From Escherichia phage vB_EcoP_SP5M, in sequence record NC_070869.1: a stretch of DNA of 64,000 nt; one strand, 5' to 3'. Positions 2,402 to 39,561 of this stretch are shown here, piece by piece. The translations under genes were made by a program, and so were the position numbers. The notes beneath the pieces are model-generated. The model did not search any database. It was not told the origin of the DNA and was given only the letters and a program-made list of their open reading frames with translations. Position 1 is the stretch's first letter, and each line of letters opens with the position of its first letter.

Positions 2402-3577
2402 ATGAACCAGATACCTCAGCACACACTTAGTGATGAACAACTCATGCGTGAGTATGACCGTATTCAGGCCCAAGCCTTTCTAGGCAAGTCTGCTGCGTTT
2501 TTTGGTTCATTGCTGTGTAGTCTTAAATTCTCATGGAATCGGGAGGATTGTCCCACTGCATGTACTGATGGGATAGAACTCCATTTCAACCCAGACTTCT
2601 TTATCTGGATGTGCCCTGATGCAAGAGAAACAGTGCTAATGCACGAACTCTGGCATGTGGCATATCTCCATGGCATCCGTTGTGGAAGCCGTGACCCGGA
2701 AGTCTGGAACCAGGCATGTGACCACTTCATTAACCTTCAGTTAGAGGAAGATGGTTACAAATTCACTGGTATCGACAAAGGCATTTGCAAAGACCCTCAA
2801 TATAAAGGATGGGTTGAAGAAGACATCTACGATGACCTGATGAAGAACCCTCAGAAAAGGCAGAAGCCGTCAGGGGGTGCTGGAGCAGGTCTTGCTGGCG
2901 ACATGAAAGCTCCCTCTTCGGGGCAGTCCCAGGGTGCTGTTGTCAACAACGTAGTACGTGCAATGCAAAGCCAGAAGATGGCTGGTGGAATGATGCCCGG
3001 TAAAGGTGCTGGTCGTATGGAAGAGGTTATTACCCAATTCCTTAAACCAGTGGTTCCTTGGCAAGAAGTCCTGCTGAACTTCTTTACCGACATTGATGAC
3101 ACACACTATACGTGGGCCAGACCTAACCGTCGTTTCACTGATATCCATCTACCTTCTCTGGAAGATGATGAGGGTCGTTTACGGCACTTAGCTTACTTTG
3201 AGGATGTATCTGGTTCTATTAGTAGTGCTGACTCTCTGCGTTTTAACTCAGAGGTTGCCTACGTTAAGAGCCAGTTCAATCCTAAGAAGATGACCCTTAT
3301 TACCTTCGACGATATTATCCAAGAAGAGATAGACATCACTGAAGAAGATACTTTTGAAGAGATTAAGATTACTGGTCGTGGTGGTACAAACCTTGAACCA
3401 GTGCGTGATTGGATTATTAAGAATAAGCCAACCGCTGCAATCATATTCTCCGATATGTATGTTCGTCCAATGGAAGAATTACCATTTGATATCCCTATCA
3501 TCTGGTGTGTTCTGAATAATCCCAATGCTACCGTACCTTTTGGGGAGGTAGTTCATATCCCTAAAGGAATGAAATAA
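2402..3577 (+). CDS. vWA-domain protein with N-terminal HExxH metallopeptidase-like motif
   Basis: HELWH motif near N-terminus; MIDAS-like DVSGS and downstream GGTNL / FSDMY elements consistent with von Willebrand A fold. Confidence 0.6.
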   Translation: MNQIPQHTLSDEQLMREYDRIQAQAFLGKSAAFFGSLLCSLKFSWNREDCPTACTDGIELHFNPDFFIWMCPDARETVLMHELWHVAYLHGIRCGSRDPEVWNQACDHFINLQLEEDGYKFTGIDKGICKDPQYKGWVEEDIYDDLMKNPQKRQKPSGGAGAGLAGDMKAPSSGQSQGAVVNNVVRAMQSQKMAGGMMPGKGAGRMEEVITQFLKPVVPWQEVLLNFFTDIDDTHYTWARPNRRFTDIHLPSLEDDEGRLRHLAYFEDVSGSISSADSLRFNSEVAYVKSQFNPKKMTLITFDDIIQEEIDITEEDTFEEIKITGRGGTNLEPVRDWIIKNKPTAAIIFSDMYVRPMEELPFDIPIIWCVLNNPNATVPFGEVVHIPKGMK

Positions 3578-4083
3578 TGGTTGTTAATGGTAATTCTCTA
3601 TACCGTTCATCTCAATTACTGGACATCCCAGACCGTAAGGTATCCGAGCACGGTGTAAGCTATGGATTAGGTGAAGCTGGTTACGATATCCGTATCAAAC
3701 AAGATATCACCTTCTATCGCTTATTTGGGTTGATTCCAATGGTGAAAATCATTGATGGTGAGACGGTAACTCGTCGCTTCGGCAAGTTCGCATTGGCTTC
3801 GGCAATTGAGAAGTTCAACATGTCTAAGTACTGCGTAGCTATCGTTCACGATAAGTCTACCTGGGCAAGGCGTGCATTATCAGTGTTCAATACCGTAATA
3901 GAACCAGGATGGAAAGGGTATCTTACCCTCGAACTGGTTTATCATGGTCGTAAGAAACTGCATATCCCGGCTGGTGCTGGGATAGCTCAAGTATTATTTC
4001 ATCTGGTTCAGGAGCCTGCTAATTACAATGGCAAGTATCAGAACCAGGAAAACAAACCAGTAGCTGCAAGAAGCAGTAAATAA
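3577..4083 (+). CDS. dCTP deaminase / dUTPase-superfamily protein
   Basis: GEAGYDIR and EPGWKGYLTLEL motifs resemble dCTP deaminase family signatures; ATG overlaps upstream stop. Confidence 0.5.
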   Translation: MVVNGNSLYRSSQLLDIPDRKVSEHGVSYGLGEAGYDIRIKQDITFYRLFGLIPMVKIIDGETVTRRFGKFALASAIEKFNMSKYCVAIVHDKSTWARRALSVFNTVIEPGWKGYLTLELVYHGRKKLHIPAGAGIAQVLFHLVQEPANYNGKYQNQENKPVAARSSK

Positions 4084-14888: not shown

Positions 14889-16853
14889 ATGCGTTACATC
14901 ACCTCTCAGGATACTGGCAAGTATCCTATTGCTATCCTCGGTCATCAAATCCGAAGGGAGGAGATGATTAAAACCTACCTGCTGCCTTATGACCTAAGCA
15001 TGGAAGATTTCATCTTCCTTGAACTACATTCTGCCCCTGGCAAGAAGAAAACTCCTGCAAGGGAGATTAAAGAGTTCATTCAGCAGGAACTACAGCAAGT
15101 ACTGGATGATGCGGAGACTCAGTACATTATCTGTACCGATTCTGACTACTTCAAAATACTGACTAAAGAAGCTAAAGCAGAAGCTAACCTCGGCTATGTT
15201 TGTGACTCAGTATGGGGTAAGCAGAAGGTTATTTATACGCCTAACTACAGACAGGTCTTTTATGATCCACCCGTAGTAAAAGCCAAAATTGCTCAGGGTA
15301 TGGATGCATTACTTAACCACATCCGTGGACAGTATGCTGAACCAGGTCAGGGAATCATTGAGTTTGAAGCCTATCCGGATACGCCCGAAAAGATTAAAGC
15401 CTGGTTAGACCAGTTGCTTGAGATGAATAAGCCTCTGGCTATAGACATCGAATCATTCGGTTTAAAGCACTATAACGCAGGTATAGGAACGATTACGTTC
15501 TGTTGGAGTAAGACACAAGGCATAGCTTTTAATGTGGACTACGAGCCAATTAAGGGGGCTACTGAAGCACCATATGGGCGTATTAACAGGAACGATGTTG
15601 TTCGTAACCTGTTACGTGAGTTCTTCATTAAGTACACTCAACGGCAGATGTATCACAACATTAGCTATGATGTTTATGTGCTTATCTATCAGTTATTCAT
15701 GGATAACCTGATTGATACGGAAGGCTTACTACATGGCGTGGAAATCATGCTACGTAACTGGGACTGTACTAAGTTAATCACCTATCTGGCTACTAACAGT
15801 TGTGCCGGTAATCACCTTAGTCTGAAAGACCAGGCTCAGGAGTATGCTGGTAACTATGCTCAGGATGATATTAAAGACATTCGTCTTATTCCTAATGAGC
15901 AACTGTTACGCTACAACCTCATTGATGGTTTGTGTACGTGGTACACCTACGAGAAGCACTGGGATACTCTCATTGCTGATGACCAACTGGATGTTTACAA
16001 CAACATCTTTAAACCAGCCTGTGAAGACATTATTCAGATGCAGTTAACCGGTATGCCCATGAATATGGAAACCGTTAACCAAGTAGCTGAAGAGATGGAA
16101 ACTGACAGGAACCAGGCTTTGAAAACTATTCGTGAGTCTAAGCTCATGAAGAACTTCACCCTGATGCTTCGTCAGGAATGGGTAGATGATAAGAATGCTA
16201 AGCTCAAGAAGAAACAAGTAACGCTTGCTGATTGTGATATTGAGTTTAATCCTAACTCCGGTCCACAGTTACAGAAGCTGTTATTTGATTATATTGGCTT
16301 ACCGGTTCTTGGTCTTACTAAGAGCAAGCAACCTGCTACTGACGGTGATACTATTAAAGCACTGCGTACACATACGCAGAGTGAAGATGTTAAGGAACTG
16401 CTCAATGCACTTATCGACTATAAACTCGTGGATAAGATTATCACTAGTTTTATACCAGCTTTCAGGAATGCCCAACCGGGACCGGATGGCTGGCACTACC
16501 TGTTCGGAAACCTCAATCTGGGAGGCACAGTCTCCGGTAGGCTATCGGCTTCAGAGCCAAATCTACAAACAATTCCATCCGGTTCTAAATATGCCAAGAA
16601 GATTAAGAAATGCTTCGAAGCCCCTCCTGGCTGGATATTTTGCGGTTTGGACTTCGCCTCGCTGGAAGACAGAATATCTGCACTGACTACCAAAGACCCA
16701 CAGAAGCTCAAAGTGTACATGGGGGTAATTGTGTATAGCGTTACTATCGATGGAGTTGACCATCATATCCGAGATGATGATACAATTGTTTATGATGGGA
16801 AAACATTTACCGGAGAGGAATTTTATAATGCCTATACCAATAGCCTACTTTGA
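14889..16853 (+). CDS. family A DNA polymerase, N-terminal fragment (3'-5' exonuclease + palm motif A)
   Basis: Exo I motif LAIDIESFG; motif A GLDFASLEDR near C-terminus; ORF ends about 45 codons after motif A in non-polymerase-like sequence, where the HNH gene begins. Confidence 0.75.
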   Translation: MRYITSQDTGKYPIAILGHQIRREEMIKTYLLPYDLSMEDFIFLELHSAPGKKKTPAREIKEFIQQELQQVLDDAETQYIICTDSDYFKILTKEAKAEANLGYVCDSVWGKQKVIYTPNYRQVFYDPPVVKAKIAQGMDALLNHIRGQYAEPGQGIIEFEAYPDTPEKIKAWLDQLLEMNKPLAIDIESFGLKHYNAGIGTITFCWSKTQGIAFNVDYEPIKGATEAPYGRINRNDVVRNLLREFFIKYTQRQMYHNISYDVYVLIYQLFMDNLIDTEGLLHGVEIMLRNWDCTKLITYLATNSCAGNHLSLKDQAQEYAGNYAQDDIKDIRLIPNEQLLRYNLIDGLCTWYTYEKHWDTLIADDQLDVYNNIFKPACEDIIQMQLTGMPMNMETVNQVAEEMETDRNQALKTIRESKLMKNFTLMLRQEWVDDKNAKLKKKQVTLADCDIEFNPNSGPQLQKLLFDYIGLPVLGLTKSKQPATDGDTIKALRTHTQSEDVKELLNALIDYKLVDKIITSFIPAFRNAQPGPDGWHYLFGNLNLGGTVSGRLSASEPNLQTIPSGSKYAKKIKKCFEAPPGWIFCGLDFASLEDRISALTTKDPQKLKVYMGVIVYSVTIDGVDHHIRDDDTIVYDGKTFTGEEFYNAYTNSLL

Positions 16854-17370
16854 GAACCGTTATCTAATTTCAGAGGATGGTTCCATCACCAATCTTGCTA
16901 GCAATTCCCCGCTTAAACCAACAGTAAATCCTAATGGGTATCTTAAGGTTGGTTTAGCGAAAGGGGATGGTACGCACCAACAGGAATTGGTTCATATTCT
17001 GGTAGCTAAACACTTTATTCCCAATCCATACGGATACAAGTATGTAAATCATCTGGATGGGAATAAACAGAATCCCCATAAGGATAATCTGAAATGGTGT
17101 ACAGCATCCCAAAATTCAGAACACGCCCTGCGAACAGGATTACGTCCTGGATATATGTCTGCAAATGACAAGGAGAAGTACCTATTTGAAGTACTGGAAG
17201 GTAAGCAAGTAGGTGAACTCGCCCAAGAAATAGGCAGACGTGCAGAAACACTGCATAAAATGCTCAGAACCACTGCTGACAGACTCGGTATCCGTCATAA
17301 GTGGGATGAGGTTATGAGGAGGAACCGCAGAGATGTCGCAATTCGACAACTTGCCAAAATCAACTCATGA
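16828..17370 (+). CDS. HNH homing endonuclease inserted in DNA polymerase gene
   Basis: ATG 16828 with GGAGAGGA RBS (track start 16729 is upstream in-frame); NUMOD4-like N-terminus (YFENRYLISEDGSITN) and HNH_3-like core (HLDGNKQNPHKDNLKWCT). Confidence 0.7.
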   Translation: MPIPIAYFENRYLISEDGSITNLASNSPLKPTVNPNGYLKVGLAKGDGTHQQELVHILVAKHFIPNPYGYKYVNHLDGNKQNPHKDNLKWCTASQNSEHALRTGLRPGYMSANDKEKYLFEVLEGKQVGELAQEIGRRAETLHKMLRTTADRLGIRHKWDEVMRRNRRDVAIRQLAKINS

Positions 17371-26563: not shown

Positions 26564-26629
26564 TCCGGTGTAGGTACTAGTGTCGTGCACGGCATGAGTG
26601 TTCTGGTTCGAGTCCAGACGCCGGAACCA
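26564..26629 (+). ncRNA. tRNA-like minihelix (acceptor stem + T arm + CCA), 63 nt
   Basis: T arm TCTGG-TTCGAGT-CCAGA, acceptor TCCGGTG/CGCCGGA, discriminator A, encoded CCA; only 31 nt between acceptor and T arm and no anticodon stem-loop can be formed. Confidence 0.35.
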
Positions 26630-26631
26630 AT

Positions 26632-26755
26632 TACCAGTTGCACGAGATGGCTTGACATGTTCAAGTTTGGACTAAGTGTGACACCGCTAGATTGGAGGGC
26701 TGCTGCGGTAAGCTATAGACTCCAACCGGAGGTTCGAATCCTTCACTGGTAACCA
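26632..26755 (+). ncRNA. tRNA-like RNA, about 121 nt, with T arm, acceptor stem and CCA
   Basis: T arm GGAGG-TTCGAAT-CCTTC, acceptor TACCAGT/ACTGGTA, discriminator A, CCA; interior about 48 nt longer than a tRNA and not foldable into a cloverleaf by hand. Confidence 0.35.
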
Positions 26756-27031
26756 ATTCAAAGTAGCACTCGTTCATACTTCCCGGTATTTAAAGACACA
26801 TTCTTGTGTGAGTGCTACTTTGAGTTGGTAAAACCAAATAAAAGTCGCCAGGTACTTATGGCAAACGGGTAGTAACGAACTAGTCATTCGTCAAACGCCC
26901 ACCCAATTATGAGTCAGCAAGAACGCCTTCACTTAAACTTAAACAAAAAAGCTTAACGCAATAATTATGTAGGGGTATGTAAGGATTGCGAAGAAGGAGC
27001 CAGTTAGAGCCTGGCATGACTCACCTATTAA

Positions 27032-27104
27032 TACCCGGTAGGCTTAGTGGTAAAGCCCCACTAGTAAACCAACTAGGACGCAGGTTCGAATCCTGCCCGG
27101 GTAA
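27032..27104 (+). tRNA. tRNA, isotype undetermined (non-canonical anticodon loop)
   Basis: Acceptor TACCCGG/CCGGGTA, D arm GGCT-TAGTGGTAA-AGCC, T arm GCAGG-TTCGAAT-CCTGC; anticodon arm folds only as CTAGT/ACTAG with a 6-nt loop AAACCA (or 4-bp stem with 8-nt loop). Confidence 0.5.
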
Positions 27105-27113
27105 TCATATTAT

Positions 27114-27190
27114 GTCCGCTTAGCTTAGACTGGGAAAGCAACCGACTAATAATCGGAAGGTCACTGGTTCAAATCCAGTAGTGGACACCA
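27114..27190 (+). tRNA. tRNA with encoded CCA; anticodon loop CUAAUAA (apparent anticodon AAU)
   Basis: Acceptor GTCCGCT/AGTGGAC, D arm GCTT-AGACTGGGA-AAGC, anticodon stem CCGA/TCGG with loop CTAATAA, T arm ACTGG-TTCAAAT-CCAGT, discriminator A + CCA. Confidence 0.6.
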
Positions 27191-27424
27191 ATTCAGCAGT
27201 AACATAGTCCTGATTGCATAGCACTCTAAAGACAACACTGGTAAGACAGTCCAGTGGCTGCTAATGTATTGTTATTCCCCTCGACGGGAATTTCGCTAGT
27301 GAAGGTAACACTTAAAAATCCAAACCTACGTCTTACTACTATCAGGCTATCAACCCATGGTCGCTTAACCCTATAGTGATAGTAGTTTGACGGCCTGCTT
27401 CGTTGACTGCGTTAAAGTCACTAA

Positions 27425-27460
27425 GTCCCCTGGAGCCGCCACTCTGGGGGACTTTTTTAT
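27425..27460 (+). terminator. Rho-independent terminator after the tRNA region
   Basis: 11-bp stem GTCCCCTGGAG/CTCTGGGGGAC (two G.U) followed by TTTTTTATTT. Confidence 0.8.
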
Positions 27461-27629
27461 TTGAGAATTACTTATTGGACGATTCATATGATTGACCTAA
27501 TCTTAACCCCATATGCCTATGAGGTAACGGATAACCGAGGACGTAAGTCTTTAGTATTTGCAGGTAGCGTAGCCTATAACAACGCAGTCATGTTTAAATA
27601 CACACTCAAACCACTCTATGAGGCTAATA

Positions 27630-28010
27630 ATGGCAACAGTAAGCAAAGAATCAATCGAAGCTAAGATTAAGAGCGTCTACTATTTCAATGGTGCTGATGC
27701 AGTGAAGTCTGCATTCGTTAACCCTTCTGCACTTCCGGCAGACGATTTGGCTAACCTGGGCCTGGTAACATACTGTGTTATCATCCTGGAAAATGGCTTT
27801 AAAGTTGAGGGTGTATCTGCCTGTGCTGATCCGTCCATCTATGATGAATGGAAAGGTCGTCAGTATGCATATGAAAATGCATTCAATAAGATCTGGGAAT
27901 TGGAGGGTTACCTCCTACGTCAGGCGCTGCATGAGCAAGCCCAGAGCCAGGAAATGTTAAAGGGCTTCCTGGAAAATAATGAGTGTGAAGGTGGGGGTTG
28001 TAAAATTTAA
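27630..28010 (+). CDS. hypothetical protein
   Basis: ATG 27630 with GAGG upstream (track start 27618); conserved-looking core LVTYCVIILENGFKVEGVSACADPS. Confidence 0.5.
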   Translation: MATVSKESIEAKIKSVYYFNGADAVKSAFVNPSALPADDLANLGLVTYCVIILENGFKVEGVSACADPSIYDEWKGRQYAYENAFNKIWELEGYLLRQALHEQAQSQEMLKGFLENNECEGGGCKI

Positions 28011-28402: not shown

Positions 28403-28891
28403 ATGTCAGAAGAAATTAAAGTTCACTTCACCAATTACATTGGAACCAAGTGTGTAAATGGTTTCAAGATGAACAAAGAAACATATTGCAAACTTCGTGG
28501 ATGGGATGTGCCTGCTAATGAAGACCCATTAGAAGTAGGTTACTTAGTAGAATACCCGGATTCTAAACCTAACCATGAGCAATTCCGTGGTTATATTAGC
28601 TGGTCACCGAGGGTTGCATTTGAAGCTGCATATTGTGATGTAGATAAGGGTTGTACTTTTGGTCACGTAGTAGAACTTATAAAACTAGGTCACAGACTGA
28701 CCCGTAAAAGCTGGAATGGTAAGGGAATGTATATCACCCTAGTACCTGGTGAAAATTGGGCTATGGATAAACATGAGAATACCGTGTGTGAGAAACGGGA
28801 TTGGTTGGGCATCAAAACTGTTGATGACCAGTTTATGCCTTGGGTTCCATCCCAATCGGATGTATTAGCTGAAGACTGGGTAATTCTGTAG
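28403..28891 (+). CDS. hypothetical protein
   Basis: ATG 28403 with GAGG upstream (track start 28376 is GTG inside the hairpin); segment RKSWNGKGMYITLVPG. Confidence 0.5.
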   Translation: MSEEIKVHFTNYIGTKCVNGFKMNKETYCKLRGWDVPANEDPLEVGYLVEYPDSKPNHEQFRGYISWSPRVAFEAAYCDVDKGCTFGHVVELIKLGHRLTRKSWNGKGMYITLVPGENWAMDKHENTVCEKRDWLGIKTVDDQFMPWVPSQSDVLAEDWVIL

Positions 28892-29145: not shown

Positions 29146-29172
29146 GCCCCTCATAGAGGGGCTTTTTTATTT
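29146..29172. terminator. bidirectional terminator between convergent plus-strand genes and the RNA polymerase gene
   Basis: Stem GCCCCTC/GAGGGGC, loop ATA; TTTTTTATTTT on plus side and TTTGCTTTT on minus side. Confidence 0.85.
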
Positions 29173-32100
29173 TAGTTTACTAAGTTCATCCAAGGGTTCA
29201 GGTTGTGAGCACGAAGCCCCTGACCAAAGCCCCATGAGTAATCCAGACTACCCTTAGCAGCAATGCTAAAGATGTTGTCCTGAATAGGTAAGCCAACGTT
29301 ACCAAACATGGTAGGAGTTGGAGCCAGCATCGCCATTGCTGCATGTACTGGGTTGTTACGAATCATGGACACTGCAACTTTTGCTGAACGAATCTTAAAG
29401 TTGTAGAACCACATTAAACCAACACTTTCCATATACCCACGGAAGCGACCCGGCAGACGGTCATAGTTAACGAACTCTTCCGTTACACGTCCCAGTGCTT
29501 CTTCACGAGTCTTACCTTTACGCTGGGTCAGTTCATCATAGATGATTGCTTTAGCGATAAAGTCAGAGTACTCAACAGTCTTCTGGATACCCTGGAACAA
29601 AGCAGTATCCTTAGTGATAAGTGCATAACGACCAGCAGTACGCACTGACTTAGGTAACTTATCAGCCAGCTTATCCATGTATTCGTGAAGTTTGCCCTCA
29701 GTAATCAGGATGTCATCACGACCGATACCAGCATCCGCAATTGAAGAGAACTCACCAGCTTCTAACAGAGGCCAGATACTCATACGCTTATGGCTATCAG
29801 TAATGGACTGAATCTCAGCCTTAAGTTTACGAATCTGGTTCGGGTTAGTAGCTGCACGTAATTCTGCTTCTGCATCTACCTGACGTAGACGAGATTTCAG
29901 GTACTGATTAATCTCAGCAGTCTTCTGTGGAATGCTCTTAGCAATGTTCTTAACCGGTACGCCACGGGCAACCATCTGGTAAAGGTTAGCCAAGAAGTTA
30001 ACAGCAGGTACGACTACTGACTTAACTACAATCAGAGTCTTAGCTTCTTTAACTAAGTTTTGAACCAGGTTCTCACCACCCATTGTGTACTTATATGCAC
30101 GGTTACCAAATACACCCAGCATAGCTTTCTTGAAGGTATCCAATGTTTCTGGGGACCAACGAGAATTACCAGACCAAGCATCCCCAACGGAAGCTGCACG
30201 ATAACCAAGTGCATCATTCAGCATGTCACGACGCACCCACAGTTCACCTTCACCGAATAAACTCTCTGCTTTCCGTCGAGTTTCACTGTTCATCAGCTTG
30301 AGAGCATCAGCAGTTACTGGGTCCAGTTTAGAACCAAGAAGATTCACATACTGGGACTTATTAGAGGCAGACATTTTAATGTCGTTCTCATACATGCTAT
30401 GCAGGTTCTCAATCAGCATATCGTTGAAGCGTTGAGCCTTAGCTTCTTCCACCTGACGACCACGCCATACACCAATTGCACGGGCAAGATGGTTCTCACC
30501 TTCAATGTGCTTCAGCATGTTAGGGTCAATGGATTGCTCATAGGCAACTACATTACCTTTATCGTCATATACTGGCAGCAGTGGTTCGTTGCCACGTTCA
30601 CCACGAGCCAGTGCTTTAGTGATACGGTCTACGGAAGGTTTGTCAGTAATACGACCAGCTACCATTGAACCTACCGTAAATCCTGTACCAAGATCTACAC
30701 CACCAGCAGTATCACGAACGTTCTGTAGGATACCCTGTGAGAATGGAGCCTGTGCCTGTACTGGTGCAAAGTAGTAGCTACGTGCTGGACCACGGTTAGC
30801 AGAGCTACCTTGATAAGTACCAAGACGTACATAGGACTTCTCAATCAAATCACCAAACTGGCTATCTTCAGCAACAATCAGATTAACACCCTGTTTAGTC
30901 TCACTAGGGATATGCCCTTTGTACTGGTTCAGAGTTGCACGTGGGTCAGACTTGGCTTTAGCCATTTCATCTTTACGCTGACCAACCAGATAAGAAGTAG
31001 CAAAGTCCATTCCATCAACTTCTGTCTGAGCCAGTGAAGATAACATTTCACGGTCAGACTTGTTCATTGCTTCCAGTGCATACAGGGTAATAAGTTTATC
31101 CAGTTGAGCTACATCTACAGTAGATCGAGCAGCCTGACGTTCACCCAGCATACGGGAGATTGCAGTAGCATTACGCAGTAGGTTATTACCAACTGTACCG
31201 TTAATCATGTACTGAGCCAGTTGCTTAGATTTACGATTAATCAGGGGCCAGTTACGACCAGCTTGTTTCTGCAAATCTGCTTCCAGCTTATTCACTTCAC
31301 GGTCAACAATCTTCTGGTCAGACAGCAGGTCACGGATTTCAGCCAGAGACATAGTATCCCGAAGAACAGCTAAGTCAGTTTTACCCATACCAGTGTGCAT
31401 TGCTTTCCACTCATCATTAGTCAGCTTACGACTGAACTTAGATGCGATAGTGGTAGGCAGATGTTCACGGAATTGCTGTCGGTCTGCTTGTACCTGTGCA
31501 CGAACTGCTTTAATCAAATCGTATACAGAAGCATTGCTCTTAGTACGACCGGTTAAGTCATTAATTAAGTCATGAAAAGGTTGCCATACCTTACCCTGGT
31601 TCATTGCTGCCATAACACCTTCAGCTACAATTGCACCATTCTTCTCTGTAGCAATAGCAGCTACCAGTTGTGCAGCATGAGCAGCACCTTTGACCAATGG
31701 GTTCTTAGTATTAGCTGCAACTTCACGAGCACTTTCTAAAGCACGAGTAGACAGTGCATCAATAGAATCCACCAGATACTGGTTAGCTCGGTCAATAGCA
31801 TTACCACTGGGAGTAGCAACGGAATCATAGAATGACTGTGCATTGAGGCTAGTCTGCATGATTGTCTGAGCCAGTGCATCCATACCTTCCTGTACGTTAG
31901 TAGCTTTGGTATCACCTGCTACACGGGCATTCAGGCTAGACATTGCAGCAGTACCAATGTTAGTCAGCATTGCATCAACGGTATTACCAGATTTCTTATC
32001 TGCTTTCATAACTGGAATGTTAGCCAGTACATTACGTACTTCTTCGCTAACCATTGCCAGACCAACAAAGGTAGGCAGTAAGGAAGAACGACCCTGTGCA

Positions 32101-35100
32101 TCAAACTCAATGTTGTTAGCACCCATGATTGTATCGAACTTCTGTTGAGCATAGTAACGGTCAGCAGGGTTAGTACTATCTGGGTCAGCCATGAATGCTT
32201 CAACGGTCAGGTTCTTAGTAACGTGTGCATAGTATTCCTGTACACGAGAAAGAGCTGCCGGACTAATAGCAGCTTCGGTAGCCAGTGCAGCAACGATATT
32301 AGTGAACAGACGTTGCTCCTGCATATTCATAGTGAAGCCATGGGCCTGAACATCACGGGTTACTTTAGTTGCATTCACTACTGCATCAGAGAACTTACCT
32401 TTACGAATTACTTGCTGTACTGGTTCAGAACCAATGTAGTTAGTAATCAGTTTATCAAAGGTCTGCCCCAACTCTTCCAGACGGGTATTGTCACCGTATG
32501 CCTTGTTATGGAACAAGGTAGTGTCCTTGGATACAGCAGCAGTAGGAGCCTGTCCACGCATAACCACAGAGGAGTTAAACAGTAAGCCAGAGAACATATC
32601 ATCTGCATTAGCAGGTGCTTTCTTGCGACCAAATACCAGACGCTTGATTGCTTCATACACAGACTGAACCATAGCTTTCAGTGCTGTGGTCTTCTTCTGC
32701 TTACCAATCAATTCACGGTTGGTTAAACCCCAAGCCATGTACTCATTCAGTGCAGCAGCTTTAGCCATTGCAGGTTCAATGAAGCCATTAGACAGGTGAC
32801 CATTAATGGTAATAAGTGCATCAGCATATGCTTCACGTACTGCCGGAGATTCGTTCTTAACATCCAGAGTACGGAACTGGTTCATCAGGTCTTCAATATT
32901 CTGGACTGCTTCATTATGAGTACCCTCGTAGTGAGCCAGTACAGATTCAAAAGTGGAAGCATGTACCAATTCATGAACCAGAGTCTCTAAGGAAGGGGTA
33001 ACTAAGTAGATGGTCTTATCATCGAAGTTAGTCCAACCATACGCATTACCTGCTTCGGCAGCTTCAATATCTTCCGGTGCTGGACGGGTAATGTTCTTCT
33101 CAATAGCATAAGCATCCAGTTGAGCAGGTGTACCGTAAACAACCTTGTAGTCTTTAGCAGCAAGAGATTTCTGTACTTCCTTCAATACTGCTTGCTGCTC
33201 AGGAGACATCTCTTTAGCCAGCTTAGTAATAGCAGTATTGGACAGCAGACGTACACCAGACTTAAGTACACGACCAACTTGTTCCATTGCTGGAATTTCT
33301 TTCACTGGTTCTGCTTTAGCAGCACGTACTGCATCACGACGCTTGTTTAATTCAGCATCAAACAGTTCGTTCAACTTAGCTACTTGCTGGTCTACAGTCA
33401 GACCTTCCAGAGAGATTTTACCGTTATTCACATAAGGAGCACCTACAGCAGCCATCTGGTCAACAGTGGTCTGCACCTGGTTCATTACTTTGTGGCGAAT
33501 ATCTACACCAAGAGCAATGTTACGCAGGTTACGTTCAATCTGTTCAGCACCTGCACGTAACAGGTCATCAGTAGCTCCCTCACGCTGGTCATATTCCAGA
33601 GCAGATTTAGCGATAGCCTGTTTGGTTTCATCAGACAGTTTGCTGAAGTCTACATTCTTCATGAACTTAGCGTAGGAGTCATAAACATTCTTGATAGGGT
33701 TACCCTGCCAAGAAGTGTATACAGCCTCGTTAGCTTTGCGACTTGCATCAGTGATGTCACTGATACCAATGTTCATACCATCAAAGATTTTCAAGGTATT
33801 CTTTGGAGCACCTTTCATAGTAGAAAGGGTCTGCATCATCATGCCATCACCAGTACCGATGGTCATAAATGGAATACCTGCAACACCTGCCTGTGAAGGA
33901 GCATAGATGCTCATTGGCACACGCATACGGTCATCTAAGTTGGTAGCCAGTACTTGGTTAGCAACATCAGTATTCTCACTACCAGCAATGTAGAAAGTCT
34001 GTGAGCCAGTCTCAATCATTGGAGCCAGTGGAGATAAAGATTCCTGGATTTCATTCAGTTCTTTCTGTGTTAAGAAATCACCCTTCTTCCAGGTTGAGTC
34101 TTTTTCTTTTTCTGCCAGCTTAGCCTGTACTGCTTGCTGGAACATATCCTGCAATACCAGAGACTGAATCTGGGTAGCCTTCTGCAAGTTCTCAGTAGAG
34201 TGCATCAGACCTTCACCAACAGTATTACGGATACCAGTACGCATTGGTTCAACGAACAGGTAGAGCATGTTCTCTTGTAAGTTCTTCAGGGCATTACCGG
34301 ATACGGTAAATTTCTGAGGGTTTAACTTACCAGTCAGAGCACCATCTACTTGCTGAATAGACAACTCACCTTTACGCACAACTGGAACATTGCCAGTCAG
34401 TGCTTCCATAGAAGTAAGGAAAGTATCCAGCATAGCCTGAGCATCAGCCTCAGACGCAGCCTCCTTACCAAACATTGCCATAGCTGGGGAAATGCTAGGG
34501 TCAGCAGCCCGTGCTTGCAGAACGTCACTGAGGCGTTCATAGATGGTGTCAGTAATTGCACTAACCATCTTACCAGCAATACCACGAGCACCAGAACCAT
34601 AGATGGTAATGGTCAGTGGGTTTTTGGCGATACCACGTTTCAGGTCCAGAGTACCGTCTTCATTCAGGTTGAAGTCTTTAATGAACAAGTCCATTAACTT
34701 CTGAAGATGGTTCATCTGGCTCATAACTGGAACGTTGTTACGGTAAGTAGTACGTAACTCATTCAGGGCTTGTTGCAGACCATTGGTAGATGCTTCATAC
34801 AGGTCAACACTGTCATCCTGTGAACGATGCTCGTTCATAGTCTTACCAGCTTTACCAAAGAACAAACCACCCTTAGCAGTATTCTTAATCCAGTCTGGAG
34901 TGAACTTACCACCAGTCATTAATACCATTGCGTTGATTGGGCCGTTAGTTACACCATCAGCTTCAACGTACAGTGGAGTATTAAAGTTGGCACGGTCATC
35001 GCTGTTCAGGTAACGAGCATATTCCATCAGAGCCATGAGAGCCACGAAGGATTTGTCACCACCCAGAGAAGTCTTCAGGATATCTACTGCATCAGCAGGT

Positions 35101-38100
35101 AAGTGACCAGACTTATCGAACTCAACCATCATATCAACAGCTGGCTTCAGATTGCCTTCCAGAGCCTTGGTCAGCTTTTCAGACATAGCCTCACGGGACA
35201 TGTTATGTACCTTGATGCCCAATGCCTGAGCCAGTCCTAGCTGGAAGTCAGAGTACGCTTGGCTGTTTTCATTACTTAAGTCGATAGTAGAGAAGGTCGG
35301 CAGAATTGCTTCACGAACCAGTTTACTGGATTGTGGGTTGTTCTTACCAAGCATCTGCATACGGCCTACACGAGTCATGTTGTAACTGTAGTGAATAGGA
35401 GTATCCAGTCCATTCTCTTGTTCTCGTATCTGATTAATTACACCGAACAGAGAATCATATGCCATAGACACGGACAGGTTTTTACCTTCCAGAGATTTAG
35501 CAGTGTTCTCATTCAGTAAGTCAGGATTAAGAGTACCAGCACCCATCAGTTCCAGAATGTTGTCACGGCCTAATGCTTCATAGAAGTTAACCATCGGCAT
35601 ATGTACACGGAACTCAGTAGCCTGTTCAGCTTTCAGAGCAGCTTTCTGCTCAGGGGTATTTTTAACAGCAGGATTACGTAACTGAGTTTGAGCCACGGAA
35701 GGAATGTCATCACCGAAGTACATTTTCTCTTCCGGATTTACCAGCACAGCTTCCTCAATTGCTGTAGGGAAATCATTAATAGGGTCTTTATCTGCCAGCT
35801 TATTAATGGTGTACAGACCAACAGTCTTATTAGAGTCTGGGTCAATCTCAGACACATCCAGCATAGTCTCAGTAACTGCACCCATCTCAATGAGAGAAGA
35901 CAGAATCTCTGTAGCCATTGCCATTGGGATACCTTTTGTATATCCCAAAGGTGCATTAGGATTGCGATTTAAACCCCAGTAGGATTCAATCTTCTGAGCC
36001 AGTGAGCTAGTAGCTTCAACCAGAGTCTGGGCATTCTCAAACTCAGCCAGAATACTTTCTGGTAACAGAGATGCTTCTACACCAGTAATAGCAGCTACAT
36101 CTTTCATATCTTTAATAGCAGCATTCTGTGTAGCAGTCAGTCGCCATTGCAGACCAGCAAGCACAGCAGTCTCTAACAACTGGTCATTGAACTTAAAGGT
36201 ATCACCATCTCGTTCAACGATATTCAGCAGTTTGCCACCTACCCAACGATTAGCCTCAGTACCTTCTGCAAAACGTTTACCAACATTTTTGTTAGCAAGG
36301 AACTTAGCCAGTCGTTCAGACAGAGTAGTCTTCAGAGTTTCCCCAAAGTCCATCAAGTCCTGATAACGTTTCATCACATCACTGGTGAGAGCGTTATTTT
36401 CTTTTTGAGTGAATGCTTCAAAGCGAGCAGCAGAAGACAGTGCTTGCTTAATATCAGTCAAAGGAGATTCAGAACCAATGGTACGGGACTTAGGTTCTTC
36501 TGGTAGGGTAAATGCTTTCAGGAACTGGTTCGGTGTCTTTTCATTGTTATAGACAGGGAACACTGTTTCCATTTCTGTTTTGGTTTCGACTACTTCCTGG
36601 GTAGCATCTACTGTTTCAGATTCAGTAGTAGAGACTTCTTCTGCTTTTGGACTAGTCTCCTTAGTAGGAGCAGTCTTATTTTCTACCACTGGTTTAGATT
36701 TAGGCTGTACAGTAGTAGTGTCCTCTTGCACTGGTGCAGGAGATTCATCAACCTGATTCACTGGTTCATTGGTCTGTTGGGATTGAGCAGCATCAAGACT
36801 GCCCTGACGGAACTCTTTAACTACCTGAGCAGCAGGCTTGTTCAGACGTGGATCCAACGAGGTAACTTTCACATGAGAAACATTAAGCTCCGGGTAAGCC
36901 GTAGCAAGTGCATTAGCAATATCAGCTACGGTTTTGGCCTCCAGTCCTACTTGCTGGGCAAACTTAACAGACTTGGTATCATAAGGATTGACACCGAGAC
37001 CAGTACGACTACGTACCCATTCACGGGAAGGCGAGAGAGCCTGATAATGAACAGACTTATTCTTATCCGCATTCCCAGAAATCAGATGCTCATTCAACGC
37101 TCCGACCTTATTCTGCATGTGCTGGGCGAACTTCATAAAGTCGCTCAGATAAGCGGAGGCCAAATCGAAGTTACCAGAGTTATACGCAGAACGAATGCGT
37201 TTCGCATGTTGCAACGCAGAGTACTGTCCTTCGTTAGAACGAGACTCGTCGGTTTTAATCTGTTTACTAACAATGTCTTGAGGACGTAAGCCTAGTTCTT
37301 CTGCTTTAGCGTCGAACTCACGTGCACCCTGTAATAAGGCAGCAGCCGATTGCAGGGCAGCACGTTGACGATTCCCCAGTGTAATCTTACCTTCACTTGC
37401 ATGTTTCAGAACCATGTTCACTGAATCTGCGTCCAGTACTTCTGGAGACACATCAGCAGCCATAGCAATGTTGTTTGCTTGGGCTTGGTTAGCTTCTTCA
37501 GTAGCTTTCAGCTTACCTGCTTCAGCCTGTTCCTGAATCATGGAATGGATAGCACGGAATGCACGGAGTACTTTAGGGGTATTCTGTACGTTAGCCATCA
37601 GACCGGAGAACTGGTCTACGATAGTAGCAGCAGGGGAACCTTGTTCCAGATTAGCCAGAGCACCTGGGTCACGGTTAATGAAGCTATCCATAGACATGAT
37701 GTTGTCATACATCTGGATTGCAGCTTCCATTTGAACGTTAGGGTCTTCGGCAGTATTAACCAGGTCAGCCATCTTCTGAATAGCTTCTACACGGTTAGTG
37801 GAACCAGAAACAGCTTCACGGATTACTGGGTTAGCTTGTTCCAATTCTACTGGGTCAAACTTCATTGCCTGAGTTAAGTCAGCAGCATACTGAGTAGCAG
37901 CAGCTTTCTCTTCTGGAGTGATATCCATTGCATCTACTGCTTCCTGTACAGTTGCTTGTGCTTGCTCTGCCTGAGCAGCAGCTTCCTGTGCAGCAGCGTT
38001 AACCGTAGCATCAGCTACAGGGGATGCTTGTTCATTACGCTTAGCAACTTCTTCACCACGTTGAACCAGGATGTTAGTAAGAGGAGATGCAGCTTTTGCT

Positions 38101-39503: not shown

Positions 39504-39561
39504 AGCATGTTTCCTGTTCAAACTTATATCGTATATAGGTAACTTACTCTACAGTAAGCCA

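What the first reader, a model, noticed from the sequence alone, without database searches (positions are those of the whole stretch)
27032..27190. Two tRNA genes with unusual anticodon loops (6- or 8-nt loop; apparent A34 anticodon)
Both genes have good acceptor, D and T arms. In the first (27032-27104) the anticodon arm only forms as CTAGT/ACTAG with a 6-nt loop AAACCA, or a 4-bp stem with an 8-nt loop, which is not a standard 7-nt loop. In the second (27114-27190) the loop is CUAAUAA, giving anticodon AAU with adenosine at the wobble position, rare in bacteria. Non-standard loops can indicate frameshift-suppressor-like tRNAs, pseudogenes, or tRNAs adapted to escape host anticodon nucleases.
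Basis: seen in the sequence. Interest (0 to 1): 0.5.

Follow-up and report, generated by a model that had tools for sequence, protein, structure and literature searches.

The report
Odd tRNA and tRNA mimic in phage
An N4-like E. coli phage carries a real isoleucine tRNA with a rare A-first anticodon, and next to it a conserved tRNA-shaped RNA with no usable anticodon loop that belongs to a largely unannotated family found in many gut-bacteria phages.

Summary
ARAGORN and Rfam call both genes, one with a 6-nt anticodon loop ("tRNA-???") and one as tRNA-Ile(AAU).

The window is a Gamaleyavirus, an N4-like coliphage.

**Gene 2 (27114-27190)** is a canonical, conserved tRNA. Its closest relatives are CAU-anticodon tRNA-Ile2 genes of the prophage ileX/ileZ type. 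It differs from them in the loop only by C34->A. All 12 copies examined keep AAU.

**Gene 1 (27032-27104, "X")** is probably neither a frameshift suppressor nor a decaying pseudogene.
- It belongs to a family seen in four BLAST searches (21-90 phage records each) spanning Schitoviridae, Stephanstirmvirinae, Vequintavirinae and a siphovirus.
- Members share the acceptor, D and T arms and the elbow nucleotides.
- Their "anticodon" arm is a hairpin of 5-7 bp with loops of 3, 4, 6 or 9 nt.
- Covariation supports all four helices: 95% of cells pair and 11 of 22 pairs show double changes.
- Most members are unannotated, and ARAGORN misses most of them.

I read X as a non-decoding tRNA mimic. Its role is unknown, and a decoy against tRNA-targeting defence is speculative.

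Both genes sit in an operon of further tRNA-like RNAs, next to candidate anti-defence genes.

The parts
27032..27104 (+). X: a tRNA-shaped RNA without a standard anticodon loop. Acceptor 27032-27038 / 27097-27103, discriminator A at 27104. D arm 27041-27057. Connector CCA 27058-27060. Hairpin CUAGU/ACUAG 27061-27065 / 27072-27076 with 6-nt loop AAACCA 27066-27071. 3-nt variable region 27077-27079. T arm 27080-27096. CCA is not encoded in this copy (UCA follows).
   Evidence: ARAGORN tRNA-???. Rfam tRNA 42.5 bits. MFE cloverleaf z -2.95. Family covariation. Family model R1 gives 90.9 bits, versus <=44 bits for ordinary tRNAs.
27114..27190 (+). tRNA-Ile with anticodon AAU. Anticodon loop CUAAUAA 27146-27152, A34-A35-U36 at 27148-27150. 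Discriminator A at 27187, encoded CCA at 27188-27190.
   Evidence: ARAGORN tRNA-Ile(aat). Rfam 62.4 bits. Nearest relatives are CAU tRNAs annotated tRNA-Ile, which differ in the loop only at position 34. 10 of 20 pairs are compensatory across relatives. 12 of 12 Gamaleyavirus copies have CTAATAA.
27105..27113 (+). 9-nt spacer between X and tRNA-Ile, poorly conserved.
   Evidence: 6 of 9 columns vary among 9 relatives, against 10/73 in X and 7/73 in the tRNA.
26563..26629 (+). TL-A: a tRNA-like RNA of the same array. It has an 8-bp acceptor-like stem, one long central hairpin in place of the D and anticodon arms, a T arm with loop UUCGAGU, and an encoded CCA.
   Evidence: 98% identical in phage N4 itself and 89% in Klebsiella phage KP8. 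Consensus fold with 4 compensatory pairs. Annotated tRNA-Undet / tRNA-OTHER in a few records.
26631..26755 (+). TL-B: a ~125-nt RNA with an 8-bp acceptor-like stem (UUACCAGU/ACUGGUAA), T arm GGAGG-UUCGAAU-CCUUC, an encoded CCA and a ~95-nt insert.
   Evidence: Read from the sequence. 89% identical to KP8 L028:1837-1979. The fold of the insert is not resolved.
27196..27261 (+). TL-D: a conserved structured RNA directly after the tRNA-Ile. It has a 5-bp closing stem, internal hairpins, and a 6-bp hairpin with a 9-nt loop abutting the 3' strand.
   Evidence: Conserved in N4, KP8, IME11 and ECBP1, with 10 of 19 pairs compensatory.
27423..27454 (+). Intrinsic-terminator-like hairpin (13 pairs) followed by a T run. 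It is the probable end of the tRNA / tRNA-like RNA transcription unit.
   Evidence: Terminator scan. An equivalent hairpin plus T run lies at the same place in N4.

Best explanation
Both genes are real, selected phage genes. They lie in a transcription unit of tRNA-derived RNAs (about 26563-27454, + strand) in a Gamaleyavirus, an N4-like phage.

Gene 2 is a working isoleucine tRNA that arose from the CAU / lysidine-dependent tRNA-Ile2 lineage by a C34->A change. It keeps the isoleucine identity nucleotides, so IleRS should charge it. It no longer needs the host enzyme TilS and is no longer a MetRS substrate in its unmodified form. It pairs perfectly with AUU, the phage's commonest Ile codon. 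If A34 is deaminated to inosine it would read AUU, AUC and AUA. This decoding step is inferred, not shown.

Gene 1 (X) is not a decoder. It belongs to a family of tRNA-shaped RNAs that move horizontally between phages. The acceptor stem, D arm, T arm and elbow nucleotides are kept. The anticodon arm has become a plain hairpin, displaced by two nucleotides, whose loop is free to vary (3-9 nt). X is probably matured like a tRNA by RNase P and 3' trimming. It probably acts through its tRNA-like upper half by binding a protein that recognises tRNA shape. The most attractive, but untested, role is as a non-cleavable competitor or decoy for a host tRNA-targeting defence enzyme.
For: Window identity: 91-97% to Gamaleyavirus genomes.

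Gene 2:
- Canonical cloverleaf, 62.4 bits.
- Its best matches outside the genus are CAU tRNAs that RefSeq annotates as tRNA-Ile and that lie beside tRNA-Arg genes, matching the Stx-phage ileX/ileZ type. Loop is CTCATAA there versus CTAATAA here.
- 10 of 20 pairs are compensatory.
- AAU is kept in 12 of 12 copies.
- Only 7 of 73 columns vary, against 6 of 9 in the spacer.
- A35, U36, A37, A38, A73, C4-G69, U12-A23 and C29-G41 are all present in the sequence.
- Codon use in the window is ATT 32.8, ATC 17.0, ATA 6.4 per 1000.
- Ile-tRNA(AAU) expressed in E. coli was tolerated and even improved growth (bioRxiv 10.64898/2026.05.15.725136).

Gene 1:
- The same odd arm occurs in the 13 Gamaleyavirus copies read, out of 18 such records matching at 91-97.5% identity.
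- Homologues in SABI/SonariX, 05F01, A7_1, UPEC06, NDO71, KP8, phiEB49 and Phapecoctavirus have loops of 9, 3, 4 and 4 nt.
- On 19 distinct sequences, 95.4% of cells pair and 11 of 22 pairs show double changes. 0 of 500 shuffles reach this, and slid controls give 30-53%.
- U8, A14, G18, G19 and the GGUUCGAAUCC T loop are invariant or nearly so.
- The family model separates members (73-91 bits) from ordinary tRNAs (<=44 bits).
- The same hairpin type occurs in unrelated phages of the same host. NDO71 (Vequintavirinae) and KP8 (Schitoviridae) both infect Klebsiella.
- X is absent from 5,426 E. coli genomes.

Neighbourhood: a Tad2-like gene and a gp49-family gene that one relative annotates as anti-CRISPR.
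Against: There is no expression, processing, charging or modification data for either RNA.

X is missing from many Gamaleyaviruses (ECBP1, PhAPEC5, Bas96), so it is dispensable. The discriminator base and the encoded CCA are not conserved in the family. This argues against one fixed aminoacylation identity and shows some laxity at the 3' end. No protein partner is conserved next to X across phage families. No complementary target exists in the window. The decoy role rests only on context and analogy. Sequences in the covariation test are related, so the shuffle statistic overstates significance.

For gene 2, E. coli TadA is known to prefer a UACG loop (my recollection, and as discussed in the preprint), so I34 formation on an AAU loop is uncertain. 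An unmodified A34 might misread AUG. The closest E. coli tRNA(GAU) already reads AUU, so the benefit is not obvious.
Confidence: 0.55

Rival explanations
1. X is a tRNA pseudogene. On this view it is a relic of a once larger tRNA cluster, as in N4, KP8 and SABI, that has lost its anticodon loop and drifts without function.
For: The window has lost all the canonical tRNAs present in N4 (Asn, Ser, Thr, Pro). The region is a mosaic of indels among relatives. Relatives carry other aberrant tRNA genes: tRNA-Cys(ACA) annotated 'pseudo', a chimeric tRNA in Bas96, and a tRNA-??? in KP8. X is absent from many relatives. The CCA and discriminator are variable.
Against: A drifting gene should accumulate stem-breaking changes. 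Instead 95% of cells pair, with double compensatory changes in all helices except the D stem. X is about 5 times less variable than its flanks. The elbow nucleotides are invariant across phage families. The hairpin has been remodelled into tight 7-bp stems with 3-4-nt loops rather than decaying.
Confidence: 0.15
2. X is a decoding tRNA with an unconventional loop. It would be a frameshift-promoting or quadruplet/doublet-reading tRNA with an 8- or 6-nt loop.
For: The loop can be drawn as 8 nt (UAAACCAA) on a 4-bp stem. Expanded loops are the hallmark of +1 frameshift suppressor tRNAs (established knowledge). The phiEB49 homologue can be drawn with a 7-nt loop UUAACAA, and ARAGORN calls it tRNA-Val(aac).
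Against: Neither drawing has a U33-equivalent followed by a constant anticodon. The fifth loop base is C, U or G in otherwise near-identical relatives, and the closing pair changes U-A to U-G. Homologues have 3- and 4-nt loops, which cannot present an anticodon. The hairpin sits two nucleotides out of register with the canonical anticodon arm, and the variable region is only 2-3 nt.
Confidence: 0.05
3. X is a cis-acting processing or stability element. It would be a tRNA-shaped 'punctuation mark' that recruits RNase P and 3' exonucleases to cut the polycistronic transcript, defining or protecting the ends of neighbouring RNAs, with no role as a free molecule.
For: X always lies inside tRNA clusters, 3-10 nt from a neighbouring tRNA. 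Only the parts recognised by RNase P and the CCA-adding enzyme (acceptor, T arm, elbow) are conserved. In the window it sits between a 98%-conserved upstream block and tRNA-Ile.
Against: Relatives without X still keep the same tRNA-Ile and flanking RNAs (ECBP1, PhAPEC5), so X is not needed for their maturation. Ordinary tRNAs already provide such cleavage sites. It does not explain why the hairpin is kept paired or why X moves between unrelated phages.
Confidence: 0.15
4. The A34 of gene 2 is an adaptation to escape a host factor rather than a codon-supply device. The factor could be a nuclease or modification-dependent toxin that recognises the CAU / lysidine loop of tRNA-Ile2. Alternatively the change removes dependence on TilS when host functions are shut off.
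For: The change is exactly at position 34 of an otherwise tRNA-Ile2-type loop and is fixed in the genus. Phage tRNAs are proposed to carry loop changes that block anticodon nucleases (PMC10264068). The gene lies beside candidate anti-defence genes.
Against: I know of no nuclease that targets tRNA-Ile, and none turned up in the papers read. AAU does not read AUA unless it is modified, so the tRNA would not replace the function of tRNA-Ile2.
Confidence: 0.2

Closest known systems
Prophage/phage tRNA-Ile2 (CAU anticodon, lysidine-dependent; ileX/ileZ of Stx phages such as 933W)
   Same: About 79% identity over the whole body. The anticodon stem-loop is identical except for one base. It has the same isoleucine identity nucleotides.
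   Different: Position 34 is A, not C. TilS therefore cannot make lysidine, and the primary codon becomes AUU instead of AUA.
Eukaryotic tRNA-Ile(IAU) and the engineered Ile-tRNA(AAU) tested in E. coli (bioRxiv 10.64898/2026.05.15.725136)
   Same: The same AAU anticodon gene. The engineered tRNA is tolerated and slightly beneficial in E. coli.
   Different: In eukaryotes A34 is always deaminated by ADAT. Here the modification state is unknown and the backbone is of the tRNA-Ile2 type. The natural occurrence is in a virulent phage.
Bacillus cereus tRNAOther, a pseudo-tRNA that does not function in translation but affects gene expression (PMC3399842)
   Same: A tRNA-shaped RNA that tRNA finders predict with undetermined identity. 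It serves as a precedent for a non-decoding role.
   Different: It is chromosomal and Gram-positive, with no sequence relation. X is phage-borne, forms a multi-lineage family, and has a remodelled hairpin instead of an anticodon loop.
tRNA-like domains of non-coding RNAs: bacterial Y RNA-like YrlA, mascRNA of MALAT1, and the stable RNAs C and D of the phage T4 tRNA cluster (recalled from memory)
   Same: tRNA-like acceptor / T arm / elbow without a decoding anticodon. They are processed by tRNA enzymes. The T4 RNAs also sit in a phage tRNA cluster with unknown function.
   Different: Rfam YrlA scores only 19.4 bits against a gathering score of 69, and that hit spans two genes. No sequence similarity was tested against the T4 RNAs. 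X is a free-standing 73-78-nt cloverleaf.
Phage tRNAs that counter tRNA-targeting defences: T5 tRNA-Lys against PARIS and T5 tRNA-Tyr against retron Eco7 (PMC11464382, PMC11555353), plus the loop-mutation hypothesis (PMC10264068)
   Same: Phage-encoded, tRNA-shaped, and located among accessory or anti-defence genes. The altered anticodon arm is the distinguishing feature.
   Different: Those tRNAs still decode and rescue translation. X cannot decode, so it could only act as a competitor or decoy, and nothing shows that it does.
+1 frameshift suppressor tRNAs with 8-nt loops (sufD, sufA6, sufJ; established knowledge)
   Same: A non-7-nt anticodon loop.
   Different: Suppressors keep U33, a defined four-base anticodon and a normally placed stem. 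X has none of these, and its loop length varies from 3 to 9 nt among homologues.

Membership tests
Canonical elongator tRNA (Rfam RF00005) - gene 2 | Cloverleaf with a 7-bp acceptor, 4-bp D stem, 5-bp anticodon stem, 7-nt loop with U33 and purine 37, 5-nt variable loop, and a T arm with GGUUCAAAUCC | tested here: met
   62.4 bits against a gathering score of 29. ARAGORN tRNA-Ile. One A27-A43 mismatch at the top of the anticodon stem. 10 of 20 pairs covary.
Canonical elongator tRNA (Rfam RF00005) - gene 1 (X) | Acceptor stem, D arm with A14/G18G19, and a T arm with the GTTCGAATC loop | tested here: met
   42.5 bits against 29. These nucleotides are invariant in 19 family members.
Canonical elongator tRNA (Rfam RF00005) - gene 1 (X) | A 5-bp anticodon stem starting one nucleotide after the D stem, closing a 7-nt loop with U33 and purine 37, and a variable loop of 4-5 nt | tested here: not met
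   Three nucleotides separate the D and hairpin stems. The loop is 6 nt (AAACCA) without a U33 equivalent. The variable region is 3 nt here and 2 nt in relatives. Rfam leaves the arm unaligned. ARAGORN gives no isotype.
tRNA-Ile as a substrate of E. coli IleRS (determinants recalled from Nureki et al. 1994) | A35, U36, (t6)A37, A38, discriminator A73, C4-G69, U12-A23, C29-G41 | tested here: met
   All are present in the sequence 27114-27190 (alignment). Recognition of A or I at position 34 by IleRS is not testable here.
tRNA-Ile2 (lysidine type, TilS substrate) | C34 in a CAU anticodon, to be converted to lysidine | tested here: not met
   Position 34 is A in all 12 copies. The rest of the body is of this type.
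TadA substrate (tRNA-Arg ACG type A34-to-I34 editing) | Loop C32-U33-A34-C35-G36-A37-A38 on a stem (UACG core, from memory) | tested here: inconclusive
   Gene 2 shares C32, U33, A34, A37 and A38 but has A35-U36. The preprint reports I34 on Phe-tRNA(AAA) in E. coli, so the enzyme may be more permissive. No phage CDA-type deaminase was found among the ORFs scanned with Pfam, which were + strand ORFs.
+1 frameshift suppressor tRNA | 8-nt loop with U33 and a conserved four-base anticodon, in an otherwise normal tRNA | tested here: not met
   The MFE fold has a 6-nt loop. Loop bases vary among near-identical relatives. Homologues have loops of 3-9 nt.
X family as defined here (model R1) | UAGGCUUA..GG..AAG D arm, an NCC connector, a C-G based hairpin with a variable tip, a 2-3-nt variable region, a GGUUCGAAUCC T loop, and a 7-bp acceptor | tested here: met
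   90.9 bits, the second-highest score among 26 members. Ordinary tRNAs in the same loci score <=44 bits. The window copy has CCA rather than NCC as connector and lacks one base of the 5' hairpin strand relative to the family.
Y RNA-like (YrlA) / tmRNA tRNA-like domains | A match to the Rfam models | tested here: not met
   YrlA scores 19.4 bits against 69, spanning X's T arm and the next gene's D arm. There is no tmRNA hit in the window.
Non-decoding tRNA mimic or decoy | A stable RNA that is not aminoacylated or not on ribosomes, and that binds a tRNA-recognising protein | not testable with these tools
   Needs RNA sequencing, charging assays and pull-downs.

The most novel reading that the evidence does not exclude
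X would belong to an unrecognised class of phage 'anticodon-less tRNA mimics'. The class would also include TL-A of N4-like phages and the many IMG/VR tRNA-like genes with 4-5-bp stems and 4-6-nt loops. These RNAs keep the tRNA elbow and acceptor but replace the anticodon loop with an uncleavable hairpin. They would act as decoys or inhibitors of host tRNA-targeting immunity, for example anticodon-arm nucleases or enzymes acting on the acceptor end. In parallel, the tRNA-Ile(AAU) would be converted to I34 and read all three Ile codons without TilS, which would be a eukaryote-style solution in a bacterial virus.
Probability: 0.2. Interest if true: 0.85.

Novelty: new variant of a known kind. 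Interest (0 to 1): 0.6.

Why it matters
tRNA-targeting defences (PARIS, retrons, OLD, Septu, Schlafen-like nucleases, Cas12a3) and phage tRNAs that counter them are a very active topic. So far only decoding tRNAs have been implicated.

A conserved, horizontally shared family of tRNA-shaped RNAs that cannot decode would be a new type of player. ARAGORN does not call most members, the two copies I scanned with Rfam's tRNA model went undetected, and most GenBank records leave the site unannotated. It is also an easy experimental target, being a 75-nt gene in well-studied coliphages, with a sibling tRNA-like RNA (TL-A) nearly identical in N4 itself.

The tRNA-Ile(AAU) is one of the very rare natural tRNAs with A34 in a split codon box on the bacterial side. 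It derives from the lysidine lineage, so it bears on why A-starting anticodons are avoided and on how flexible TadA is.

If both turn out to be inert relics, the practical lesson is still useful. Phage "tRNA counts" from automatic tools mix decoders with non-decoders.

Tried and rejected
2. **Exact-pattern scans of IMG/VR** with the T arm plus acceptor of each gene found nothing. Family members were instead reached by BLAST of INPHARED and by a D-arm/T-loop pattern.
3. **The same pattern in bacterial genomes and metagenomes** mostly returned ordinary tRNA-Trp(CCA) genes of CPR bacteria, which share the UAGGCUUAAYGG D arm, plus a few Gamaleyavirus and SABI-like contigs. This hints at a tRNA-Trp-like origin for X, but I could not establish it. 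The 'CCA' inside the Gamaleyavirus loop is not conserved (CCA/CUA/CGA).
4. **X as a copy or mimic of a host tRNA.** No BLAST match in 5,426 E. coli genomes.
5. **A conserved partner protein next to X.** None across phage families. Only N4-like phages share the gp49-family gene downstream.
6. **An antisense target of the X loop or stem in the window.** 9 near-matches against 6.4 expected, and the only exact match is X itself.
7. **A phage-encoded tRNA adenosine deaminase.** None among the ORFs scanned. Only a dCTP-deaminase-like (dUTPase-fold) protein at 3577-4080. The minus-strand late genes were not scanned.
8. **Synteny of 'X + CAU tRNA' between Phapecoctavirus and Gamaleyavirus.** Rejected: the Phapecoctavirus CAU tRNA is unrelated to gene 2.
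9. **Rfam permissive scan of 25500-27700.** Nothing beyond the two tRNAs.
[quoted passage not shown] I found nothing on the X family or on N4 tRNA-like RNAs.
Full report
**1. The observation**

ARAGORN finds exactly two genes in the 64-kb window. One is "tRNA-???" at 27032-27104 (+), with a two-base "anticodon (ac)", which means a 6-nt loop. The other is tRNA-Ile(aat) at 27114-27190 (+).

Rfam's tRNA model scores them 42.5 and 62.4 bits against a gathering score of 29. For the first gene it leaves the 18 nt of the anticodon arm unaligned.

Read directly, gene 1 is:
UACCCGG UA GGCUU AGUGGUA AAGCC CCA CUAGU AAACCA ACUAG GAC GCAGG UUCGAAU CCUGC CCGGGUA A.

RNAfold gives this same cloverleaf as both the minimum-energy and the centroid structure (-28.6 kcal/mol, z = -2.95). 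Gene 2 has the loop CUAAUAA, with AAU at 27148-27150.

**2. Where we are**

The window is 91-97% identical to Gamaleyavirus genomes, which are N4-like coliphages of the family Schitoviridae. The 3,449-aa ORF at 29172-39521 (-) is the virion RNA polymerase.

The two genes lie in a ~1.5-kb stretch without credible ORFs, between the early/middle genes and three small genes:
- an N4 gp49-family protein at 27618-28010, annotated "anti-CRISPR" in one relative;
- an unknown ORF;
- a Tad2-like / DUF2829 protein at 28403-28888.

A strong terminator-like hairpin with a T run sits at 27423-27454.

**3. Gene 2: tRNA-Ile(AAU)**

Outside the genus, its best matches (about 79%) are CAU-anticodon tRNAs of Stx and other phages. 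In E. coli chromosomes the best matches sit beside tRNA-Arg genes like the Stx-phage ileX/ileZ cluster. RefSeq annotates those as tRNA-Ile, meaning the lysidine-dependent tRNA-Ile2, and ARAGORN calls them tRNA-Met. In the alignment the anticodon loop differs only at position 34, CTCATAA versus CTAATAA.

Across these relatives, 10 of 20 base pairs change on both sides while staying paired. All 12 Gamaleyavirus copies I could read keep CTAATAA. Only 7 of 73 columns vary among nine relatives, against 6 of 9 in the spacer and 9 of 12 in the 5' flank.

The nucleotides I recall as IleRS determinants are all present: A35, U36, A37, A38, A73, C4-G69, U12-A23, C29-G41. So this is a selected, canonical tRNA of the tRNA-Ile2 lineage in which C34 became A.

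Inferred consequences:
- TilS cannot act on it.
- MetRS should not mischarge it.
- It matches AUU by Watson-Crick pairing.

AUU is the phage's main Ile codon (32.8 per 1000, against 17.0 for AUC and 6.4 for AUA). A recent preprint found that Ile-tRNA(AAU) is tolerated in E. coli and improved growth in some media. The same preprint found that one A34 tRNA of a split codon box, Phe-tRNA(AAA), is converted to I34 in vivo (10.64898/2026.05.15.725136).

Whether A34 here becomes inosine is open. Inosine would let one tRNA read AUU, AUC and AUA. The loop shares C32, U33, A34, A37 and A38 with the TadA substrate tRNA-Arg(ACG), but not C35-G36. I found no CDA-type deaminase among the ORFs I scanned, which were on the + strand. 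[quoted passage not shown]

**4. Gene 1 (X) within the genus**

The same gene, with the same odd arm, occurs in 18 Gamaleyavirus records at 91-97.5% identity and in three metagenomic contigs. It is absent from many others, including ECBP1, PhAPEC5 and Bas96.

Among nine relatives, 10 of 73 columns vary. The changes observed are:
- a compensatory G6-C67 to A6-U67 in IME11;
- G-C to G-U in the T stem;
- U-A to U-G at the loop-closing pair;
- C, U or G at the fifth loop base.

A decoder would be most constrained exactly where X is most free.

**5. X outside the genus**

BLAST with X, and then with its relatives, finds homologues in:
- Enterobacter phages SABI and SonariX;
- Klebsiella phage 05F01 (Stephanstirmvirinae);
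- E. coli phages A7_1, W70 and UPEC06 (Vequintavirinae);
- Phapecoctavirus (phAPEC8, Mt1B1_P17 and dozens more);
- Klebsiella phages NDO71 (Vequintavirinae) and KP8 and relatives (Schitoviridae);
- the siphovirus phiEB49.

The four searches matched 21, 32, 90 and 41 records respectively. The site is mostly unannotated in these records.

ARAGORN misses all of them except phiEB49, which it calls tRNA-Val(aac). Rfam's tRNA model gives 33 bits for SonariX. It does not report 05F01 at E<=0.01 or KP8 at E<=0.1.

All members share:
- a 7-bp acceptor, mostly with U1-A72;
- U8-A9;
- the D arm GGCUU-A..GG.-.AAG..;
- a three-nucleotide connector (NCC);
- a hairpin that always starts with C and ends with G;
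- a 2-3-nt variable region;
- the T arm with GGUUCGAAUCC.

The hairpin tip differs between lineages:

| Lineage | Stem | Loop |
|---|---|---|
| SABI / 05F01 | 5 bp | 9 nt (RACUUAAGA) |
| A7_1 / UPEC06 | 7 bp | 3 nt |
| NDO71 / KP8 | 7 bp | 4 nt (GGCA) |
| Phapecoctavirus | 5 bp | 4 nt |
| Gamaleyavirus | 5 bp | 6 nt |

Relative to a canonical tRNA, the hairpin is displaced by two nucleotides towards the 3' side.

**6. Is the family under structural selection?**

On 19 distinct sequences (A3), the four-helix structure pairs in 95.4% of cells. Eleven of 22 pairs have changes on both sides. No shuffle out of 500 reaches the observed values, and sliding the partners by 1-3 columns drops pairing to 30-53%.

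The hairpin helix has 3 of 5 covarying pairs. For example, NDO71 has CGCAGCA/UGUUGCG where KP8 has CAUAGCA/UGUUAUG. The elbow and core nucleotides U8, A14, G18, G19, T54, Psi55, C56 and A58 are invariant.

A covariance model built from A3 scores members at 73-91 bits, while the many ordinary tRNAs in the same loci score at most 44 bits. There is one copy per locus. The training sequences match by construction, so the gap is only indicative.

The same hairpin design recurs in unrelated phages of one host genus: NDO71 and KP8 on Klebsiella, and A7_1 and Phapecoctavirus on E. coli. This suggests horizontal exchange. X has no match in 5,426 E. coli genomes.

Caveats: the sequences fall into perhaps six to eight independent lineages, and the discriminator and encoded CCA vary.

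**7. What X is, and how it may work**

Shown:
- a conserved tRNA-shaped RNA gene;
- an upper half and elbow under strong constraint;
- a lower arm constrained only to be a hairpin.

Inferred:
- It is transcribed with the neighbouring tRNAs and cut out by RNase P and 3' processing.
- It does not decode.
- It acts by being recognised as a tRNA by some protein.

Speculative: it competes with, or blocks, a host enzyme that attacks tRNAs. This idea is suggested by three things. X sits among candidate anti-defence genes. It has a patchy, horizontally transferred distribution. Recent literature covers tRNA-targeting defences and phage tRNAs that counter them (PMC10264068, PMC11555353, PMC11464382, PMC12445682).

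A precedent for a non-decoding pseudo-tRNA with a cellular role is tRNAOther of Bacillus cereus (PMC3399842).

Alternatives are set out under the rival explanations: a relic, a processing element, or an unconventional decoder. I put about 0.75 on "functional, non-decoding tRNA-like RNA" and about 0.2-0.3 on the decoy mechanism.

**8. The wider array**

The "non-coding" stretch holds more of the same.

- **TL-A (26563-26629)** has an 8-bp acceptor-like stem, one central hairpin, a T arm and CCA. It is 98% identical in phage N4, which belongs to a different genus, and it shows 4 compensatory pairs.
- **TL-B (26631-26755)** has an acceptor-like stem, T arm and CCA around a ~95-nt insert.
- **TL-D (27196-27261)** is conserved in N4, KP8, IME11 and ECBP1, with 10 of 19 compensatory pairs.

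N4 has canonical tRNA-Asn, Ser, Thr and Pro in the same unit, and the window has none of them. In N4 the block upstream of X abuts TL-D directly. X plus tRNA-Ile therefore looks like an insertion at that junction.

KP8 carries another tRNA-like gene with a tetraloop in place of the anticodon loop. A looser IMG/VR scan returned 33 non-canonical tRNA-like genes among 87 distinct hits. These have 4-5-bp stems and 4-6-nt loops. That pattern favoured short arms, so the fraction means little, but the phenomenon is clearly not confined to X.

**9. Verdict**

Gene 2 is a genuine tRNA-Ile with a rare A34 anticodon, derived from the lysidine lineage. This is a new variant of a known kind, already listed but not interpreted in the literature.

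Gene 1 is best described as a member of an uncharacterised family of anticodon-less tRNA mimics. Its function is unknown.

The interest is moderate to high because of the link to tRNA-centred phage-host conflict and because the key experiments are simple. The mechanism remains inference.

Noticed in passing
window 26563-26629 (+): TL-A is a 67-nt tRNA-like RNA with an 8-bp acceptor-like stem, one long hairpin instead of D and anticodon arms, a T arm and an encoded CCA. It is 98% identical in phage N4 (a different genus) and 89% identical in Klebsiella phage KP8. Four pairs are compensatory. Only a few records annotate it, as tRNA-Undet or tRNA-OTHER.
   Followed up: partly
window 26631-26755 (+): TL-B is a ~125-nt RNA with an acceptor-like stem, a canonical T arm and CCA enclosing a ~95-nt insert. 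It is 89% identical in KP8. The 72-aa ORF 26534-26752 that overlaps TL-A and TL-B has no family hit and is probably spurious.
   Followed up: partly
window 27196-27261 (+): TL-D is a conserved structured RNA right after the tRNA-Ile and before the terminator. 10 of 19 pairs are compensatory among the window, N4, KP8, IME11 and ECBP1. ECBP1 has a completely re-coded closing stem.
   Followed up: partly
window 26835-27031 (+): This non-coding block is 98% conserved among Gamaleyaviruses, which is more than neighbouring coding DNA. It is recognisable in N4, where it directly abuts TL-D. X plus tRNA-Ile therefore looks like an insertion at that junction. Its function is unknown.
   Followed up: no
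L003:1206-1284 (ECBP1), L001:672-751 (UE-S5a), L003:843-914, L009:645-716: Relatives carry further odd tRNA genes in the same region: a tRNA-Cys(ACA), which is another A34 anticodon and is annotated tRNA-Pseudo-ACA, and a tRNA-Ala(CGC). Neither has a counterpart in the window.
   Followed up: partly
L004:2141-2225 (Bas96): The orthologue of gene 2 in phage Bas96 is a chimera. It has the same acceptor and T arm but a different D arm, and a 31-nt segment that does not fold as an anticodon arm. It is annotated tRNA-Val and ARAGORN does not call it.
   Followed up: partly
L028:1250-1324 (KP8); IMG/VR loci such as L138, L211: Other phage tRNA-like genes have a 4-5-bp stem and a 4-6-nt loop in place of the anticodon arm, for example CCCC-UAACAU-GGGG and UCCCC-UACC-GGGGA. 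They appear in dozens of IMG/VR contigs, so short-loop tRNA look-alikes seem widespread in viral contigs.
   Followed up: partly
window 22445-23199 (+): Rfam detects a group I intron at 58.3 bits (gathering score 50), with an internal 163-aa ORF at 22590-23081 that has no Pfam hit. That ORF is possibly a homing endonuclease. The interrupted host gene was not identified.
   Followed up: no
window 14889-16853 and 17333-18163 (+): The family A DNA polymerase appears split into two ORFs separated by about 480 nt. Pfam DNA_pol_A matches positions 11-179 in the first and 201-303 in the second. An intervening element or a genuine split gene is possible.
   Followed up: no
window 28403-28888 and 27618-28010 (+): A Tad2-like (Thoeris anti-defence 2, PF11195) protein and an N4 gp49 / Sf6 gp66 family protein lie directly downstream of the RNA array. 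One relative annotates the gp49-family gene as anti-CRISPR.
   Followed up: partly
L034 (Komeilibacteria MAG), L053 (metagenome): tRNA-Trp-like genes with the same UAGGCUUAAYGG D arm but 8-nt or 6-nt anticodon loops occur in CPR bacteria and metagenomes. Ordinary tRNA-Trp(CCA) genes of CPR bacteria share this D arm with X.
   Followed up: no
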